37,798 nt of DNA from a virus: the UHGV virus genome UHGV-1315295; one strand, 5' to 3'. The notes beneath the pieces were generated by a model. The model was not told the origin of the DNA. It did not search any database and saw only the letters and a program-made list of their open reading frames with translations. The translations under genes and the position numbers were made by a program. Positions 1-8,590 of the stretch are shown in pieces (positions within the stretch are counted from its first letter, which is position 1; every line of letters begins with the position of its first letter).

Positions 1-175
1 TAAAGCAGAGCAAATTGAAATAGTAAATTACATCAATAATCAAGTAGAAGTGACTGAGTCATCTATTGATCTGATTAAAAATAAAATAGAAAAACTAAAA
101 GAATACAAAACCACCCTGATCAATAGCGCCGTGACAGGAAAAATAAAAATCACCCCAGAAATGGTTGAGCAATAG
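1..175 (+). CDS. hsdS: Type I restriction-modification specificity subunit HsdS, C-terminal fragment (5' end outside window)
   Basis: Frame starting at nt 2 reads ...IDLIKNKIEKLKEYKTTLINSAVTGKIKITPEMVEQ then TAG at 173-175; resembles the conserved C-terminal region of HsdS; sits directly upstream of hsdR on the same strand. Confidence 0.55.
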   Translation, partial: KAEQIEIVNYINNQVEVTESSIDLIKNKIEKLKEYKTTLINSAVTGKIKITPEMVEQ

Positions 176-184
176 GACGCGAAT

Positions 185-1348
185 ATGTTCACGGTAAATC
201 ATCAAACCAACAGGATTAGTCCTGTTAGGACAAAGAAGTTCAGTGAGTTGGGCTTTACTGAGCGCAAGCATCTTCAGGAGTGGTTGGCACACGAACCTTC
301 CGCACTCGGTGAAGAGTTGTTGATTATTCAAAAAGAGTTCGATGGCTTTGATGACACCCGTGAACGCTTAGATTTACTGGCACTGGATAAAGATGGCAAC
401 TTGGTCATTATTGAAAACAATCTGGACGACAGTGGCCGCGATGTGGTGTGGCAGGCGCTTAAATATGCCTCCTACTGCGCAAGTTTAACCAAAGCGCAAA
501 TCGTTGAAATTTACCAGCAGTACTTAGACCGCTATGAGCCTGTAACAGGAGAGGTTGACTTGTTTAATACCCCTGCAAGTGCCTCTGCTAGAATATGTGA
601 GTTTTTGGATGCGCCCGATCTCGATGAGTTAAAGCTCAACCTGGGTAACAGCCAGCGCATTATGTTAGTTGCGGCAAACTTTCGCAAAGAAGTGACCAGC
701 ACCGCGCTGTGGTTATTGGGTCAAGGCATTAGCATTGCCTGCTTCAAAATCACGCCTTATTCACTGGGTGAACAGCTACTGATTAATATTGACCAGATCA
801 TTCCAACGCCAGAAGCGAAAGAGTTGATGATCGGCATTAATGCCAAGGAAGCGGAAGAAAAAACCACCGAAGTGGTACTAAAAAACCGCCATACCGTGCG
901 TCGCGAGTACTGGGAGCGTGCCTTAGAGGCGTTTCAGAAAAGCTCTTGCCAACTCTATAACAACATTAGCCCAAGCAAAGATCATTGGTTATCAGCAGGC
1001 TCAGGGCTAAGTGGATGTCCGTATAACCTGATATTTCTGCAAAAAGAGCTTCGAGTAGAGCTTTGGATCAGCCGTGGGGTTACCGAAGAGAATAAATACC
1101 TTTTTGATTTGTTGAGTCAGTCCAAACAAGACATTGAGCATACTTTTGGTGCAGAACTTGAGTGGATGAGGCTGGATGAGAAGAAATCTTGCCGTATCCA
1201 GTTTTCGACCAAAGCTGACGGGTTTAACAAAGAGACTTGGCCCCAAGCGGTTGCGTGGCACTTAGAGCAGATGACAAAGTTAGAAAAAGCCTTAAAAGGA
1301 CCGCTGCAAAAAGCGGCTGAGGCAATGAAACAGAAGAATTTTGATTAA
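185..1348 (+). CDS. Hypothetical 387-aa protein embedded between hsdS and hsdR; N-terminal restriction-endonuclease-like (PD-(D/E)xK-type) motif, C-terminal region unknown
   Basis: ORF track; AGGA 7 nt upstream of ATG 185; motif ELLIIQKEFDGFDDTRERLDLLALDKDGNLVIIENN followed by VVWQALKYASYCA resembles NucS-type nuclease cores but with E-N-N where E-x-K is expected; no Walker A so not PrrC-like. Confidence 0.5.
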   Translation: MFTVNHQTNRISPVRTKKFSELGFTERKHLQEWLAHEPSALGEELLIIQKEFDGFDDTRERLDLLALDKDGNLVIIENNLDDSGRDVVWQALKYASYCASLTKAQIVEIYQQYLDRYEPVTGEVDLFNTPASASARICEFLDAPDLDELKLNLGNSQRIMLVAANFRKEVTSTALWLLGQGISIACFKITPYSLGEQLLINIDQIIPTPEAKELMIGINAKEAEEKTTEVVLKNRHTVRREYWERALEAFQKSSCQLYNNISPSKDHWLSAGSGLSGCPYNLIFLQKELRVELWISRGVTEENKYLFDLLSQSKQDIEHTFGAELEWMRLDEKKSCRIQFSTKADGFNKETWPQAVAWHLEQMTKLEKALKGPLQKAAEAMKQKNFD

Positions 1349-1362
1349 GGGAACTTACAATT

Positions 1363-4300
1363 ATGGTCAGTCAAACCAATGAACAAGCATTAGAGTCGGC
1401 CATTGAGAAATGTCTGGCTGGGATCAGTACTGAAGAGCTCAAAGAGGGGCTGAGTCAGCAGTCACTGGGTGCTGGATACTTCATTGGTGCTGCTAGTGAC
1501 TTTAATATGCAATATGCCATTGATGAACGTTTTTTCTGGCAATTTCTGCAAAAGACACAAGAAGTAGAGTTGGCCAAACTGCAAAAGAACAACCCCTCAG
1601 ATTGGCAACGTAAGTTACTCGAACGATTTGACCGACTGATTAAGAAGCATGGCATTCTTCATTTACTTAAGAAAGGGCTAAGCGTAGACGATGCTCATTT
1701 CAATTTGCTCTATCCAGCCCCTTTGGCAAGTAGTAGTGAGAAGGTAAAGCAAAACTTTGCAGATAACGTGTTTAGTTGTACTCGCCAAGTGCGCTATTCC
1801 ATGGTAAATCCCCTACAAGAAATCGACATGGTATTGTTTATCAACGGAATACCCTTGATAACGCTGGAGTTGAAGAACGCATGGACCGGGCAAACAGCAC
1901 GTTATCACGGCCAAAAGCAGTATCGAGATGATCGGGATGCAACTCAGCCATTGCTGACCTTTGGCCGCTGCCTAGTGCATATGGCGGTCGATACCGACGA
2001 AGTGTATATGACCACCAAGTTATCAGGTAGCAGTACATTCTTCTTGCCGTTCAATAAAGGTCACAATCTTGGACAAGGCAACCCGCCGAATCCATCTGGC
2101 CATAAAACGGCATACCTATGGCAAGAAGTATTCACTAAAGACAGCTTGGCGAATATTATTCAGCATTTTGTGCGTCTGGATGGGTCAAGCAAAGATCCAT
2201 TACCCAAGCGAACCCTGTTCTTTCCTCGATACCATCAATTGGATGTGGTGAGAAAATTAGTAGACCATGCCGCCCAGCACGGTGTCGGTCAGACTTACTT
2301 AATTCAACACTCAGCCGGTTCAGGTAAGTCTAACTCGATTACCTGGGCAGCTTATCAGCTAATTGAAACCTATCCTGCTTCGTCTGATGTGGCAGGCGGA
2401 AAAAGCTTGGAGCAGCCGTTGTTTGACTCTGTGATTGTGGTCACCGATAGACGCCTATTGGACAAGCAGCTGCGGGATAACATTAAAGAGTTTTCTGAAG
2501 TAAAGAACATTATTGCCCCAGCGAATAAGTCTTCTGAGCTTAAGCAGGCGCTGGAGAATGGCAAAAAGATTATTATAACGACGATTCAGAAATTCCCGTT
2601 CATTATTGATGGTATCGCCGATCTTAGTGACAAGCGCTTTGCAGTGATCATCGATGAAGCACACAGCTCACAGTCTGGTTCGGCGCATGACAATATGAAC
2701 CGAGCGATGGGCAAGTCTGAAGTCGAAGAGGCAGAAGATGCTCAGGATAAAATCCTTCAGGCGATGAGATCGCGTAAGATGCGCGGGAATGCGTCGTACC
2801 TGGCATTTACAGCGACACCAAAAAACAGCACTTTGGAGAAATTTGGTCAACGCCAAGAAGATGGCTCTTACAAGCCGTTTCACTTGTATTCGATGAAACA
2901 AGCCATTGAAGAAGGCTTCATCTTGGATGTGCTGGCAAATTATACGACGTACAAAAGTTATTATGAGATTGAGAAATCAATTGCTGATAACCCTGAGTTT
3001 GATACCAAAAAGGCGCAGAAAAAACTCAGAGCTTATGTAGAACGAAGCCAGCAAACAATTGATATCAAGGCAGAGATTATGCTGGAGCATTTTGTTCCGC
3101 ATGTCGTGAATACGAAAAAGCTCAAAGGTAAAGGTAAAGGAATGGTGGTCACTCAAAATATTGAGGCGGCCATTCGATACTACAAAGCGATAAGGCGAAT
3201 ACTTGAGGAGCAAGGAAACCCGTTTAAAGTTGCCATTGCTTTCTCAGGAACCAAAGAAGTTGATGGTATTGAATATACCGAAGCAGATATTAATGGTTTT
3301 GCCGAGTCAGATACCAAAGATATGTTTGATACCGATGAGTATCGACTTTTAGTGGTTGCTAACAAGTATCTGACTGGGTTTGACCAGCCTAAGCTTTGCG
3401 CCATGTATGTAGATAAGAAGCTCGCCAGTGTCTTGTGTGTTCAGGCGCTATCTAGGCTCAATCGCAGTGCACCTAAGCTAGGGAAGAAAACAGAAGACTT
3501 GTTTATCCTGGATTTTTTCAACTCGGTTGAAGATATTCAATCAGCATTCGATCCTTTCTATACAGCAACGTCATTGTCCCAAGCTACAGATATAAACGTA
3601 CTGCACGAGTTGAAAGATGAAATGGACGATGTCGGTGTGTACGAGTGGTATGAAGTTGAAGACTTTGTGACGCGTTATTTCAAGAATGAAGACGCCCAAA
3701 CACTCAGTCCAATCATTGATATTGCCGCAGCGCGGTTTGACCATGAACTAGATCTTGAAGCTGAAGCTAAAGTGGACTTTAAGATTAAAGCCAAACAGTT
3801 CGTTAAAATCTATGGGCAGATGGCTTCTATCATGCCTTATGAAATGGTCAGCTGGGAAAAACTGTTTTGGTTCCTGAAGTTTTTAATACCGAAATTGAAA
3901 GTGGAAGATCCCGATGCTAATGCTATTGATGAGCTTCTCGATTCTGTCGATCTGAGTTCATACGGTTTGCAACGTGTGAAGCTTAACCACAGCATTAAAC
4001 TTAGTGACCAAGAAGCGGAGCTTGATCCTCAAAATCCGAACCCACGTGGGGTGCATGGCGGTGAAAAAGAAACTGACCCGCTGGATGAAATCATTCGCAC
4101 ATTTAATGAGCGATGGTTCCAGGGCTGGAGTGCCACACCTGAAGAGCAAAAGGTTAAGTTCGTGAACATCGCTGAAAGTATCCGCAATCACCCTGACTTC
4201 GAATCGAAATACAAAAACAACCCAGATCCCCATAATCGAAATTTGGCCTTCGAAAAAATGCTCAAGGAAATCATGCTGCAACGCCGTAAAGATGAACTTG

Positions 4301-4380
4301 AGCTCTACAAGTTGTTCGCAGGAGATTCAGCATTTAAAGCCTCGTGGACGCAAAGTATGCAACGAATGGTGGGTAGGTAG
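1363..4380 (+). CDS. hsdR: Type I restriction enzyme R subunit (HsdR), DEAH-box helicase/nuclease
   Basis: 1005 aa; N-terminal nuclease motif [18 protein letters not shown]; Walker A GSGKSNS; DEAH box IIDEAHSS; size and order typical of HsdR. Confidence 0.9.
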
Positions 4381-4394
4381 AAAGGAGTGATGGT

Positions 4395-5080
<686 letters not shown>

Positions 5081-5260
5081 CCACTTCATCTACACTCGCG
5101 GCATTGGAAGCAAAGATATGGTCGTCTGGCACCTGATGCACATTGATAAGGCTATCAACCACACGCTGGAGAAGTTCTTTCCACCAGCCTGAACACAATG
5201 ATTGTGCGCCTTATAGCGCCCATTAAGATAGATAAGTACTTACCAATAAGGAGAAAACAC

Positions 5261-6299: not shown

Positions 6300-6308
6300 T
6301 AACACTAT

Positions 6309-6946
6309 CCACTGCGGTGAGTAGCCAGCTCACCGCGTGTGAATCCGGCTCATAACCACTGTAGCGAGTAGAACACCCTTCAGGTATGCACCCCAACCAC
6401 TGTAGTGAGTAGAACACCATTCGGGTATGCACCCCAACCACTGTAGTGAGCAACCCCCCTGCCACGATATCAACTATCCACTGTAGTGAGTAAATTGGTG
6501 ATTATCGGGGTCGCTATACACTGTAGTGAGTAAACAGGCGTTCACTGACTACAAACAACCACTATAGAGAGTGATGGAATGCTCCCTCCAGCGGATATCC
6601 ACTATGGAGAGTAAATCTTCGCTGTTTTAAACGGATATCCACTCACTACAGTGGATAGAGGTCAAGTCAGCCAATTCTGCTCTTCACAGTGGATAGTCAA
6701 CAATGAGGAGAGCGACGATAACCGCTGTAGAGAGTAGACTTAACAGAGATACCCAGTGACCGCTAACCTCTCAGCCCTTGTTTTATCTATGTTTGCAACC
6801 ACTAACATTTACTTCGCGATTTGTGCGCACTGCCTACAGTGGTTATTCTTCGGTTTCTTTTACTCACTACAGTGGATATTGCATTTCCGATAAACAAAAA
6901 GGCTCACTACAGTAGATAGTGAGCCTTTTTACTCTCTACAGTGGTT
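6309..6946. repeat. Iteron array downstream of repA (incA-like copy-control locus): about 15 copies of CCACTGTAGTGAGTA-type repeat in both orientations
   Basis: Copies at 6309-6323, 6356-6370, 6397-6411, 6438-6452, 6478-6492, 6518-6532, 6559-6573, 6599-6613, 6722-6736 (forward) and 6641-6654, 6682-6696, 6834-6846, 6861-6878, 6903-6918, 6931-6946 (reverse); includes a 41-bp tandem duplication 6356-6396/6397-6437. Confidence 0.8.
6896..6930. terminator. Bidirectional hairpin terminator at the repA 3' end, incorporating an iteron
   Basis: AAAAA-AGGCTCACTA-cagtag-TAGTGAGCCT-TTTTT: 10-bp perfect stem with A-run and T-run on either side. Confidence 0.5.
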
Positions 6947-6949
6947 GGG

Positions 6950-8005
6950 CTATTTGCGAGCCTTTGCCTTGCGCAGCTCTTCGAGAATCGCCAGTTCTTC
7001 CTTGCTCAACATGACCATTTCCCCGTCTTTTTCTTCAGGGGCAACATCGATAATGTCCTCCGGATCATCACCTGGCAAGATATCTTCTGGCTCTTCAGGC
7101 GTAGCCATAGATGGCGGCAGTGCCGAACGTAACTTCGGCCGTCTATAGTGGATGACGAAGTAGACCGAGCTGCCGCGTTTCACTTCAGTGTAATCGAGAT
7201 AGCCGATCTCTCGCAGCTGCTCCATCGCCTTCCTGACTGTCGCATTCTGGGTAATGGTGCGGCTGGTTAAGTTAAGTCTGGCGCGTAAGCGAGCCAATGA
7301 GATTGGCGCCGGGTCTGGTGGCAAACTTTCAATGAAGGTGTAGAGCGCCTGCGCGGATTCTTTTCTGGAGAGTTCGTTGATGGCCCGAAGTTGCAAAAGC
7401 ACCTTTTTGTCGAACTGGTAAAGTTCGAAAATCTTAGGATCGGCCTTCAGTTCGACCGTGTCATTCTTGGTACTGTACTTTGCCGTCTGCACAAGGTGCG
7501 TAACGTAATACTCTTCAGAGCCTTTGCTGCGGAATGAGATGGTGTTTGTGGCGATACGACTTAGAGAGCTGTCCAGGCGCTTACGTAACTTCGCGGACGA
7601 TCTGGCTGTTGGTATGCCACAAAGTCTGACGAACTCGACGAACGGCAACGTGACGGTGTCACCAACAACCTTGTGCTTGGCGAACGCGTGGATGATGCCC
7701 ACCCATGTTTTGAAATCGTTATCCATATCAAGACGAAGACCAGCAATCCTTATATCCTCGTACCCTTCGGCTTTGGCCAGAGACAGCTGTTTGAGTTCAG
7801 CGGAGGCGTCCATAGAGACCATTTGCCCCTTTCTACCCCTGGATGTCGATTTCAGCGTCGGAACGAAGAGACCAAGACGCATCAGAGCAACAGGTTGAAC
7901 TGTGTTGTTGGTGTTAGGAACTAACGTAACAACTTCGCCGGTCTTTTTGTCTGTTTCGGAAAATGCTTCGCTTATCGCAATGTTTTTATTGTCGTTTACG
8001 CTCAT
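6950..8005 (-). CDS. repA: Replication initiator RepA (P1/IncY-type iteron-binding initiator)
   Basis: 351 aa; blocks [64 protein letters not shown] match my recollection of P1 RepA; flanked on both sides by iterons. Confidence 0.8.
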
Positions 8006-8048
8006 TCCAAATGTCTCTTTTTATTCGACGGCTTGGGTGCCTTTACTG

Positions 8049-8168
8049 ATTACAGTGGATAGTAGCACCCATCACAGTGGTTATCCTACCGCCTACAGCG
8101 GTTTTTCTACTCTCCATAGTGGTTGATTTACTCTCTATAGTGGTTGTTATTCTCACTATAGTGGATAT
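8049..8168. repeat. Iteron cluster 1 upstream of repA (origin/incC-like), 6 copies
   Basis: ACAGTGGATAG, CACAGTGGTTAT, CTACAGCGGTTTT, CTCCATAGTGGTTG, CTCTATAGTGGTTG, CACTATAGTGGATA; same family as the downstream iterons. Confidence 0.75.
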
Positions 8169-8214
8169 CGATAACCTCTAAAGCCATGTGGCACAACGGT
8201 TTGCAGGGGCCGGG

Positions 8215-8273
8215 GATCTCTTTGGGTCTTTGTGGTTCTCTTTGGTTCTAACAGGGATCTGAATTACTGGATC
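8215..8273. promoter_or_regulatory. GATC cluster 1 (3 Dam sites) adjacent to iteron cluster 1
   Basis: GATC at 8215, 8256, 8270 within GGGATCTC / GGGATCTG / GGATCGAG heptamer-like units. Confidence 0.4.
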
Positions 8274-8446
8274 GAGCCTGTGTATAAAAATCAGATAATT
8301 ACAAAATCAGGCATCACTCCCCTTCTGGGGATAATGTGTGATCGAAATAAACACGCCGCAACGCAAAATTTACAATATTTCCAAGAATATCAGCCATCTG
8401 CCGCAGAAAAACAGGCTCGGAGTTATCCAGTTAAAACATTGTCTCC

Positions 8447-8551
8447 TACTCACTACAGTGGATACCGACTACTCTCCAGAGAGGTTGTTTTGCTCTTCAT
8501 AGCGGTTATTATGCTCTCTACAGTGGTTATTTTGCTCCCTATAGTGGATAG
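8447..8551. repeat. Iteron cluster 2 (5 copies), a second origin-like module
   Basis: TACTCACTACAGTGGATA, CTCTTCATAGCGGTTAT, CTCTCTACAGTGGTTAT, CTCCCTATAGTGGATAG plus one degenerate copy. Confidence 0.7.
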
Positions 8552-8590
8552 TAACCCCTTCTCAAGCCAGTAACCGCAAGCGCTGGAGAC

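What the first reader, a model, noticed from the sequence alone, without database searches (positions are those of the whole stretch)
185..1348. Uncharacterised gene embedded inside a type I R-M operon (hsdS - X - hsdR)
A 387-aa ORF sits between hsdS and hsdR on the same strand, with 10-15 nt gaps on each side, so it is almost certainly co-transcribed with the restriction genes. This is the position occupied by PrrC-type abortive-infection modules in other type I loci, but this protein has no Walker A motif. Instead its N-terminus carries a restriction-endonuclease-like core (DLLALDKDGNLVIIENN) in which the expected E-x-K lysine is replaced by N-N. The C-terminal ~250 aa match nothing I recognise. 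It is a candidate defence accessory protein or R-M regulator.
Basis: partly seen in the sequence, partly recalled or inferred. Interest (0 to 1): 0.62.

Follow-up and report, generated by a model that had tools for sequence, protein, structure and literature searches.

The report
Nuclease defence gene inside restriction operon
The gene between hsdS and hsdR belongs to a widespread, already catalogued family of candidate anti-phage nucleases (NucS-like nuclease plus DUF4268 domain), and this copy alone carries a point mutation in the catalytic lysine that probably disables it.

Summary
The 387-aa ORF (185-1348, +) is real. It sits 9 nt after hsdS and 14 nt before hsdR, on an SSU5-like E. coli phage-plasmid assembled from a metagenome.

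It is not an orphan:
- It matches PADLOC candidate defence family PDC-S11 over its full length (E=4e-182).
- Residues 238-372 are Pfam DUF4268 (E=1e-39).
- RefSeq already annotates 97-99% identical copies in E. coli, Vibrio, Morganella, Salmonella and others.

The family motif is canonical: D63, E77-x-K79, Q90xxxY94. Every homolog checked has Lys.

Of 75 species loci, 35 have the gene embedded in hsdM/S...hsdR and 30 have no hsd gene nearby, so it is an autonomous module.

The likeliest mechanism is a stand-alone, type IV-like (modification-dependent) DNA endonuclease that complements the type I system. This rests on analogy to the published DUF4268 nuclease MdgA (catalytic E77), whose sequence I could not obtain. 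This allele is probably catalytically dead.

Low-to-moderate interest; known kind.

The parts
2..175 (+). 3' end of hsdS (specificity subunit of the type I R-M system); stop codon TAG at 173-175
   Evidence: A gene is called at 2-175 on the same contig. Syntenic relatives annotate 'restriction endonuclease subunit S' directly upstream.
185..1348 (+). Gene X: 387-aa PDC-S11 / DUF4268-family protein (NucS-like PD-(D/E)xK nuclease domain plus DUF4268 domain)
   Evidence: ORF. PADLOC PDLC04913 E=3.6e-182 over residues 1-383. Pfam DUF4268. AlphaFold model with pLDDT 93.1.
185..805 (+). N-terminal PD-(D/E)xK nuclease domain (aa 1-207), NucS/EndoMS-like, with a poorly conserved helical insert at aa ~101-156
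371..466 (+). Catalytic motif block: D63 (371-373), E77 (413-415), position 79 (419-421), Q90 (452-454), Y94 (464-466)
   Evidence: D63, Q90 and Y94 are invariant. E77 is 98-99% conserved. K79 is present in 100% of the other sequences. The family profile aligns to P. abyssi NucS residues 159-192.
419..421 (+). Codon AAT (Asn79) where every homolog has Lys (AAG in pM160133_p3). This is a private G-to-T change at nt 421 in the catalytic lysine of the E-x-K motif.
   Evidence: No 100% match over 372-471 in 58 E. coli records or 35 plasmids. The exact protein is found only on metagenome contigs of two ENA assemblies.
809..937 (+). Long connecting helix (aa 209-251) between the two domains
   Evidence: DSSP on the model gives helix H209-251.
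896..1300 (+). DUF4268 domain (aa 238-372), with an alpha/beta fold resembling T3SS chaperones, YbjN and DUF1054
1363..4380 (+). hsdR, type I restriction subunit R (1005 aa)
   Evidence: TIGR00348 hsdR E=2e-62. Pfam HSDR_N, ResIII, SWI2_SNF2 and T1R_D3-like. PADLOC REase_I.
4395..5080 (+). IS3/IS911-family transposase remnant (two broken ORFs) that marks the right edge of the R-M cassette inserted in the SSU5-like backbone
   Evidence: ORFs. Annotated as a partial IS911 transposase in pM160133_p3. The SSU5 match starts at about window 5088, and SSU5 lacks the cassette.

Best explanation
Gene X belongs to the PDC-S11 / DUF4268 family. Proteins of this family have one chain with two domains. The N-terminal domain is a NucS-type PD-(D/E)xK Mg-dependent DNA nuclease with catalytic residues D63, E77, K79 and a QxxxY motif. 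A long helix joins it to a C-terminal DUF4268 domain.

X is co-transcribed with hsdM-hsdS-hsdR, but it is an autonomous module rather than a subunit of the type I enzyme.

The most likely mechanism is a type IV-like, modification-dependent endonuclease that cuts phage DNA carrying hypermodified bases. Such DNA escapes the methylation-sensitive type I system, so the two defences would be complementary. In this reading DUF4268 is the substrate-recognition or regulatory domain.

In this particular copy the catalytic lysine is changed to asparagine (K79N) by a private point mutation. The encoded protein is therefore most likely catalytically dead or strongly impaired.

What is shown: family membership, fold, motif, operon position, autonomy of the module, and privacy of K79N.

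What is inferred: modification dependence, the role of DUF4268, and loss of activity from K79N.
For: Family and fold:
- PADLOC PDC-S11 E=3.6e-182 over the full length; Pfam DUF4268 at 136 bits.
- AlphaFold pLDDT 93.1.
- The family profile aligns its residues 62-95 to NucS 159-192, which places D63, E77, K79, Q90 and Y94 on the NucS catalytic motif.
- These residues are invariant or nearly so in 46-100 diverse members.

Autonomy:
- Of 75 loci from different species, 35 have X between hsdM/S and hsdR, 10 have other hsd arrangements and 30 have no hsd gene within 4 genes.
- Neighbours outside hsd operons are mobile-element and defence genes.
- Genes co-embedded with X include GmrSD-like type IV enzymes in 6 cases, plus Fic, RhuM, NERD and Abi_2.

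Mechanism by analogy:
- MdgA and MdgB are DUF4268-containing nucleases. Each alone protects E. coli from T4 but not from unmodified T4-GT7.
- Purified MdgA degrades T4 DNA, and E77A abolishes this (PMC12366544).
- In 77 of 121 family representatives the catalytic Glu is exactly residue 77.
- DUF4268 is also fused to GmrSD type IV enzymes (PMC4619093).

K79N:
-.
- Over window 321-4400 there are only 2 nt differences from pM160133_p3, and both are nonsynonymous.
- The lineage is otherwise under strong purifying selection, with dN/dS 0.03-0.14.
Against: - The MdgA sequence could not be obtained because supplements are not held. Homology of X to MdgA is therefore circumstantial: shared DUF4268, a nuclease domain, and E77 numbering.
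- The MdgA authors say it lacked homology to known defences, although their scan included PADLOC v2.0 profiles.
- No modified-base reader fold (SRA, PUA, EVE, YTH) was found. The DUF4268 domain resembles T3SS chaperones and YbjN, which are not known DNA binders.
- Some PD-(D/E)xK enzymes tolerate or relocate the Lys, so K79N may leave residual activity.
- K79N comes from two ENA assemblies that may derive from one sample. A population variant or sequencing error cannot be excluded.
- The 80 loci surveyed are the closest relatives (53-99% identity), so the embedding frequency may not hold for the whole family.
Confidence: 0.6

Rival explanations
1. X is a PrrC-like guard. It is held inactive by the type I R-M complex and released as a non-specific nuclease (abortive infection) when a phage anti-restriction protein such as Ocr or Stp inhibits the Hsd enzyme.
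For: The position is the same as prrC, embedded and co-oriented with 9-14 nt gaps. 35 of 75 homologous loci are embedded in hsd operons. Embedding as a backup defence is a documented logic (Payne 2024).
Against: - 30 of 75 loci have no hsd gene nearby.
- There is no ATPase or Walker A sensor module.
- DUF4268 is also fused to GmrSD enzymes unrelated to Hsd.
- DUF4268 nucleases MdgA and MdgB work alone in a heterologous host.
Confidence: 0.12
2. X is a structure- or end-sensing nuclease rather than a modification reader. It would cut free DNA ends, flaps or replication intermediates of invading DNA (as Shedu does) or mismatches (as NucS does), and DUF4268 would act in oligomerisation or autoinhibition.
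Against: - X lacks the NucS N-terminal DNA-binding domain, and its NCBIfam NucS score is 19.5 against a cut-off of 216.
- Its context is defence genes and mobile elements, not repair genes.
- The only experimental data on DUF4268 nucleases show dependence on modification.
Confidence: 0.15
3. X is a non-catalytic regulator or accessory subunit of the type I R-M system, for example controlling restriction alleviation or expression. The Asn79 form would be the functional state.
For: Tight operon coupling. This copy lacks the catalytic Lys.
Against: - K79 and the other catalytic residues are invariant in every homolog examined, so the family is enzymatic.
- There is no HTH or other DNA-binding regulator domain.
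- Many homologs occur without hsd genes.
- N79 is private to one metagenomic lineage.
Confidence: 0.03
4. The K79N change has no biological meaning. It is a sequencing or consensus error, or a recent neutral or slightly deleterious mutation in one metagenomic population, and the gene is otherwise an ordinary functional PDC-S11 copy.
For: The exact protein occurs only on contigs of two ENA assemblies that may come from the same project. Other copies also decay: the gene is a frameshifted pseudogene in pB379_2, and three or four related plasmids have no annotated CDS.
Against: - The same base was recovered by two independent assemblies.
- Only 2 substitutions separate window 321-4400 from pM160133_p3, and one of them hits one of five catalytic codons. 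By my estimate this has roughly 0.5-1% probability under random placement. The estimate is post hoc.
Confidence: 0.3

Closest known systems
PADLOC PDC-S11 (phage defence candidate, single gene; Payne et al. 2024, bioRxiv 10.1101/2024.01.29.577857)
   Same: Full-length HMM match, PDLC04913 E=3.6e-182, plus seven other PDC-S11 sub-models.
   Different: PDC-S11 is an untested candidate with no published mechanism. This copy carries K79N in the catalytic motif, unlike every other member examined.
MdgA / MdgB, DUF4268-containing modification-dependent nucleases (Cell Host Microbe 2025, PMC12366544)
   Same: Both have a DUF4268 domain plus a nuclease domain. They act as single-gene defences. The catalytic Glu of MdgA is numbered E77, which is also the catalytic Glu in X and in 64% of family representatives.
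   Different: MdgA came from a metagenomic insert, and no type I context is reported for it. X has Asn at the catalytic Lys position.
NucS / EndoMS (P. abyssi 2vld, T. kodakarensis 5gke)
   Different: X lacks the NucS N-terminal DNA-binding and dimerisation domain and has no clamp-binding tail. It scores 19.5 bits against the NCBIfam cut-off of 216. It carries DUF4268 instead, and its context is defence and mobile elements rather than repair.
PrrC / RloC anticodon nucleases embedded in type I R-M (EcoprrI)
   Same: Same genomic logic: an extra gene between hsd genes, co-oriented and co-transcribed.
   Different: X has no ABC-ATPase or Walker A motif and no anticodon-nuclease domain. Its fold is that of a DNA nuclease. 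40% of homologs lie outside hsd operons, whereas PrrC is almost exclusively embedded.
Type I-embedded type IV systems (TgvAB of V. cholerae VPI-2; BrxU / HEC-05 / HEC-06 GmrSD-like enzymes embedded in BREX or Hma)
   Same: A modification-dependent nuclease nested in a methylation-based system would give complementary coverage. GmrSD-like genes sit next to X in 6 of the embedded loci. DUF4268 is a known C-terminal fusion partner of GmrSD.
   Different: X has no DUF262 or DUF1524 (His-Me) domains. Its nuclease is PD-(D/E)xK.

Membership tests
PADLOC PDC-S11 | Full-length match to a PDC-S11 profile HMM | tested here: met
   PDLC04913 E=3.6e-182, residues 1-383 on profile positions 1-373 of 375. 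Seven further PDC-S11 models score E=4e-66 to 3e-30.
Pfam DUF4268 (PF14088) | Score above the gathering threshold (27 bits) | tested here: met
   136 bits, E=1.2e-39, residues 238-372 on profile positions 1-138 of 140.
PD-(D/E)xK nuclease superfamily (NucS/RecB-like branch) | Alpha-beta-beta-beta-alpha-beta core fold | tested here: met
PD-(D/E)xK nuclease superfamily (NucS/RecB-like branch) | Intact catalytic D ... (D/E)-x-K triad | tested here: not met
   D63 and E77 are present, but position 79 is Asn in this copy (AAT, 419-421). The family has Lys in all other members examined.
NucS / EndoMS orthologs | Score above the NCBIfam equivalog cut-off, and presence of the N-terminal DNA-binding domain | tested here: not met
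   NF003270 scores 19.5 bits against a cut-off of 216, and NF002876 scores 15.2 against 252. Only the catalytic-domain region aligns, residues 15-101. The PDB profile hit is limited to residues 62-95.
PrrC / RloC | ABC-type ATPase (Walker A) N-domain plus anticodon-nuclease C-domain | tested here: not met
   No Walker A motif. No ATPase or PrrC match in Pfam, NCBIfam or PADLOC.
GmrSD-type type IV restriction enzymes | DUF262 (GmrS) and DUF1524 (GmrD, His-Me) domains | tested here: not met
   Pfam finds only DUF4268 in X.
Type IV (modification-dependent) restriction enzymes, functional class | Cleavage requires modified bases in the substrate DNA | not testable with these tools
   Inferred only by analogy to MdgA and MdgB and from the DUF4268-GmrSD association.
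MdgA family (PMC12366544) | Sequence homology to MdgA, with a DUF4268 domain and catalytic E77 | tested here: inconclusive
   DUF4268 is present and the catalytic Glu is residue 77. The MdgA sequence is not held, so no alignment was possible.
Type I R-M operon (embedded gene) | Lies between hsd genes on the same strand with no intervening transcription signals | tested here: met
   hsdS 3' end at 2-175, X at 185-1348, hsdR at 1363-4380. hsdM lies upstream in relatives. No + strand promoter or terminator hits between the genes.

The most novel reading that the evidence does not exclude
The K79N allele is not noise but a selected loss-of-function. On this reading the active nuclease became self-toxic in this host or phage-plasmid, for example because resident DNA acquired a modification it recognises. 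The type I operon would then carry a naturally disarmed type IV partner. In addition, DUF4268 would be a previously unrecognised modified-DNA reader built on a T3SS-chaperone/YbjN-like fold.
Probability: 0.12. Interest if true: 0.6.

Novelty: new member of a known kind. Interest (0 to 1): 0.3.

Why it matters
- It illustrates the hsdS-hsdR gap as a slot for additional, complementary defence genes. Here a type IV-like nuclease is paired with a type I R-M system on a phage-plasmid that moves between Enterobacteriaceae, Vibrio and marine Gammaproteobacteria.
- It gives PDC-S11, until now an untested candidate, a concrete structural and mechanistic hypothesis: a NucS-type active site with D63/E77/K79/Q90/Y94, plus DUF4268.
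- It provides a natural active-site mutant, K79N, that could serve as a ready-made negative control.
- It does not open a new class of system.

Tried and rejected
- A direct comparison with MdgA was impossible. No supplementary files are held for PMC12366544 or PMC11888456, and the main text gives no sequence or accession. A literature search for 'MdgA' returned only unrelated uses of the term.
- The 2026 preprint on H-NS silencing, which mentions PDC-S11 six times, could not be opened.
- A second word-indexed homolog search with a diverse profile (A1) returned the same 97-99% identical subfamily and added no diversity.
A 15-sequence alignment worked but biased the 80 loci towards close relatives.
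- A single-sequence PDB search gave nothing meaningful. Only the family profile reached NucS.
- I rejected NucS orthology, PrrC-like membership and GmrSD membership (see membership tests).
- I considered that this plasmid's own DNA methyltransferases (the SSU5_088- and SSU5_095-like genes) make the nuclease self-toxic. I rejected this as a sufficient explanation for K79N, because sister plasmids of the same backbone type carry intact Lys79 copies. I did not check that those sister plasmids carry the same methyltransferase genes.

Full report
**Observation.** The window has a 387-aa ATG-initiated ORF at 185-1348 on the + strand. The upstream reading frame ends with TAG at 173-175. By synteny with annotated relatives it is the 3' end of hsdS. 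The downstream ORF at 1363-4380 is a 1005-aa HsdR: TIGR00348 E=2e-62, with Pfam HSDR_N, ResIII/SWI2_SNF2 and T1R_D3-like domains. The intergenic gaps are 9 and 14 nt. An AGGA lies 7 nt before the ATG. The consensus scan finds no + strand promoter-like or terminator-like site between the three genes. The peptide DLLALDKDGNLVIIENN is at residues 63-79, and there is no Walker A motif.

**Where the window comes from.** From about position 5088 onward the window is 93% identical to Salmonella phage SSU5 and 98-99% identical to ~110-kb E. coli plasmids of the SSU5 phage-plasmid type. SSU5 itself lacks the R-M genes. In the E. coli plasmids the cassette hsdM(807 aa)-hsdS-X-hsdR replaces part of an SPFH/lipoprotein gene and is bounded by an IS911 remnant, at window 4395-5080. 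The same cassette also occurs in E. coli chromosomal islands flanked by IS elements. In all, 61 of 5426 complete E. coli genomes and 37 PLSDB plasmids carry it. The window itself is a metagenome contig, ENA ERZ28598088, sample SAMEA3951697.

**What the protein is.**
- Pfam assigns residues 238-372 to DUF4268: 136 bits against a threshold of 27.
- PADLOC-DB matches the whole protein to PDC-S11, with PDLC04913 at E=3.6e-182.
- NCBIfam gives only a weak sub-threshold match of residues 15-101 to the catalytic domain of NucS.
- RefSeq annotates the gene as 'DUF4268 domain-containing protein'.
- PDC-S11 is one of 145 untested 'phage defence candidates' defined by Payne et al. (2024) through guilt-by-embedding in type I R-M, BREX and DISARM systems.
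- The family is large. There are 5371 clusters (50% identity level) at E<=1e-3 and 451 at E<=1e-30, mostly 355-400 aa with the same architecture.
- Copies 97-99% identical to X occur in Vibrio, Morganella, Proteus, Salmonella, Marinomonas, Alteromonas, Shewanella and others. This points to recent horizontal spread.
- dN/dS against these close copies is 0.03-0.14, so the gene is under strong purifying selection.

**Structure.** An AlphaFold2 model built with 46 diverse family members is confident: mean pLDDT 93.1, pTM 0.69.
- Residues 1-207 form an alpha/beta nuclease domain, with a poorly conserved helical insert at about 101-156.
- A long helix (209-251) leads into the DUF4268 alpha/beta domain.
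- Foldseek agrees, with NucS and EndoMS at E=1.5e-4 to 4e-4.
- A family profile aligns residues 62-95 to NucS 159-192, 'VDVMGVDKDGNIVVLELKRRKADLHAVSQMKRYV'. This equates D63, E77, K79, Q90 and Y94 with NucS D160, E174, K176, Q187 and Y191. From my own knowledge of the NucS literature, the first three are its catalytic residues.

**The E-N-N motif is a private mutation.**
- Among 99 diverse full-length representatives, position 79 is Lys in all. D63, Q90 and Y94 are invariant, and E77 is present in 98-99%.
- All 120 closest homologs have ...VIIENKLDD. So do all viral and genomic loci checked.
- Against plasmid pM160133_p3 (NZ_CP022167.1), the codon differs by one base: window 421 is T (AAT, Asn) and the plasmid has G (AAG, Lys).
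- None of the 58 E. coli records or 35 plasmids that match is 100% identical across 372-471; the best hits are 99.0%. For pM160133_p3 that one mismatch is nt 421; the other 99.0% hits were not aligned.
- The exact N79 protein is found only on metagenome contigs of two ENA assemblies, ERZ28598088 and ERZ926841/ERR1398139.
- Over window 321-4400 there are just two differences from pM160133_p3, and both are nonsynonymous: K79N in X and D853N in HsdR.
- By my estimate, a random substitution in this 4080-nt stretch hits one of the five catalytic codons nonsynonymously with a probability of about 0.3%. Two substitutions give roughly 0.6%. This is a post hoc figure. It hints at selection for inactivation but does not prove it.
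- Other copies are also decaying. The gene is a frameshifted pseudogene in pB379_2, and three or four related plasmids lack an annotated CDS.
- In PD-(D/E)xK enzymes the Lys is normally essential for catalysis (general knowledge). The N79 protein is therefore probably inactive. This is an inference.

**Is it a subunit of the type I system or an autonomous module?** I fetched 80 loci from different species (53-99% identity). I called genes crudely and labelled HsdM, HsdS and HsdR homologs with iterated HMMs seeded from pM160133_p3. X was recovered in 75 loci:

| Arrangement | Loci |
|---|---|
| hsdM/S upstream and hsdR downstream on the same strand | 35 |
| hsdM/S upstream only | 5 |
| hsdR downstream only | 1 |
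| hsd genes nearby in another arrangement | 4 |
| no hsd gene within four genes | 30 |

- Neighbours in the non-embedded loci are heterogeneous: TraI_2, SLFN/AlbA_2, NERD, RhuM, Fic, Abi_2, EH_Signature, ResIII and ordinary housekeeping genes.
- When embedded, X often shares the hsdS-hsdR gap with other cargo: GmrSD_N in six cases, plus GmrSD_C, Fic, RhuM, NERD, Abi_2 and SLFN.
- X is thus strongly enriched in type I operons but not dependent on them. This is the pattern of an independent defence gene using a common embedding slot, unlike PrrC, which is almost exclusively embedded.

**Mechanism.** The only experimental data I found on DUF4268 nucleases are for MdgA and MdgB (Cell Host Microbe 2025, PMC12366544).
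- Each gene alone protects E. coli against T4 but not against T4-GT7, which has unmodified cytosine. MdgA also protects against Mu.
- Purified MdgA degrades T4 DNA much better than GT7 DNA, and E77A abolishes both activity and defence.
- The authors propose DUF4268 as a substrate-recognition module and note its association with type IV enzymes. DUF4268 is a known fusion partner of GmrSD.
- In X the catalytic Glu is residue 77, and this is the exact numbering in 77 of 121 family representatives. MdgA is therefore probably a member of this family.
- I could not obtain its sequence, so this link remains circumstantial.

On this basis the best explanation is a type IV-like, modification-dependent endonuclease that covers phages whose hypermodified DNA evades the type I enzyme. 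The DUF4268 domain is more variable than the nuclease core: mean column identity is 0.38 against 0.67. That fits a specificity or regulatory role for it.

The rivals are:
- a PrrC-like guard of the Hsd complex;
- a Shedu- or NucS-like sensor of DNA ends or structures;
- a non-catalytic regulator;
- for the allele, a meaningless polymorphism or error.

They are weighed in the structured fields.

**Comparison and verdict.**
- X is a member of PDC-S11 and DUF4268; both tests were met.
- It has the NucS-type PD-(D/E)xK fold, but this copy fails the intact-triad criterion.
- It is not a NucS ortholog, not PrrC/RloC and not GmrSD; defining features were tested and not met.
- It probably works like the type I-embedded or BREX-embedded type IV systems (TgvAB, BrxU, HEC-05/06) and like MdgA.
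- Nothing here is categorically new. The gene is widely deposited and already listed as a defence candidate.
- This analysis adds three things. It makes an explicit structural assignment of the PDC-S11 N-domain to the NucS branch, with its catalytic residues. It quantifies embedding against stand-alone occurrence. It recognises that the odd E-N-N motif is a private K79N lesion, which makes this copy a likely dead allele rather than a divergent active site.

Noticed in passing
window 6305-6960 and 8042-8553 (flanking repA, 6950-8005, minus strand): About 20 iteron-like 19-21 nt repeats (core CTCACTACAGTGGATA) in both orientations on both sides of the repA gene. This is the replication origin of the SSU5-like phage-plasmid.
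   Followed up: partly
window 4395-5080: An IS3/IS911-family transposase remnant split into two ORFs (4395-4841 and 4838-5080) marks the right boundary of the R-M cassette. SSU5 lacks the cassette, and related E. coli plasmids have a truncated SPFH gene at the left boundary.
   Followed up: partly
window 3919 (hsdR codon 853): HsdR carries a D853N difference (A versus G) relative to pM160133_p3. Together with K79N it is one of only two nucleotide differences over window 321-4400, and both are nonsynonymous. Whether other copies share D853N was not checked.
   Followed up: no
window 205-320: 13 nucleotide differences from pM160133_p3 are clustered in the first 140 nt of gene X, followed by 1030 nt that are identical apart from nt 421. 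This looks like a recombination tract between alleles of the cassette.
   Followed up: no
L011 2046-4466 (hsdM of pM160133_p3, just upstream of the window): The HsdM of this cassette is 807 aa, unusually long. HsdM_N (10-149) and N6_Mtase (177-487) account for the first ~490 aa, which leaves about 320 C-terminal residues with no Pfam assignment.
   Followed up: no
L023, L040, L044, L024, L067, L072 (between X and hsdR): In several species the hsdS-hsdR gap holds X together with GmrSD-like genes, including two-gene pairs of about 457 and 657-666 aa in L023 and L040, or with Fic, RhuM, NERD or Abi_2 genes. The gap therefore acts as a multi-cargo defence hotspot.
   Followed up: partly
L001 8185-9347 (pB379_2) and plasmids NZ_CP058829.1, NZ_MG516909.1, NZ_CP067400.1: Other copies of gene X are pseudogenes or lack an annotated CDS: frameshifted in pB379_2, and tblastn coverage stops at residue 376 in three plasmids. 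This indicates independent decay of the gene in some E. coli and Shigella plasmids.
   Followed up: partly
window 185-1348, residues 220-371: The DUF4268 part also matches a phage protein family of unknown function, phrog_27742 (E=3e-17). A weaker N-domain match to PADLOC PDC-S18 (E=4.5e-5) suggests that a second candidate family shares the nuclease domain.
   Followed up: no
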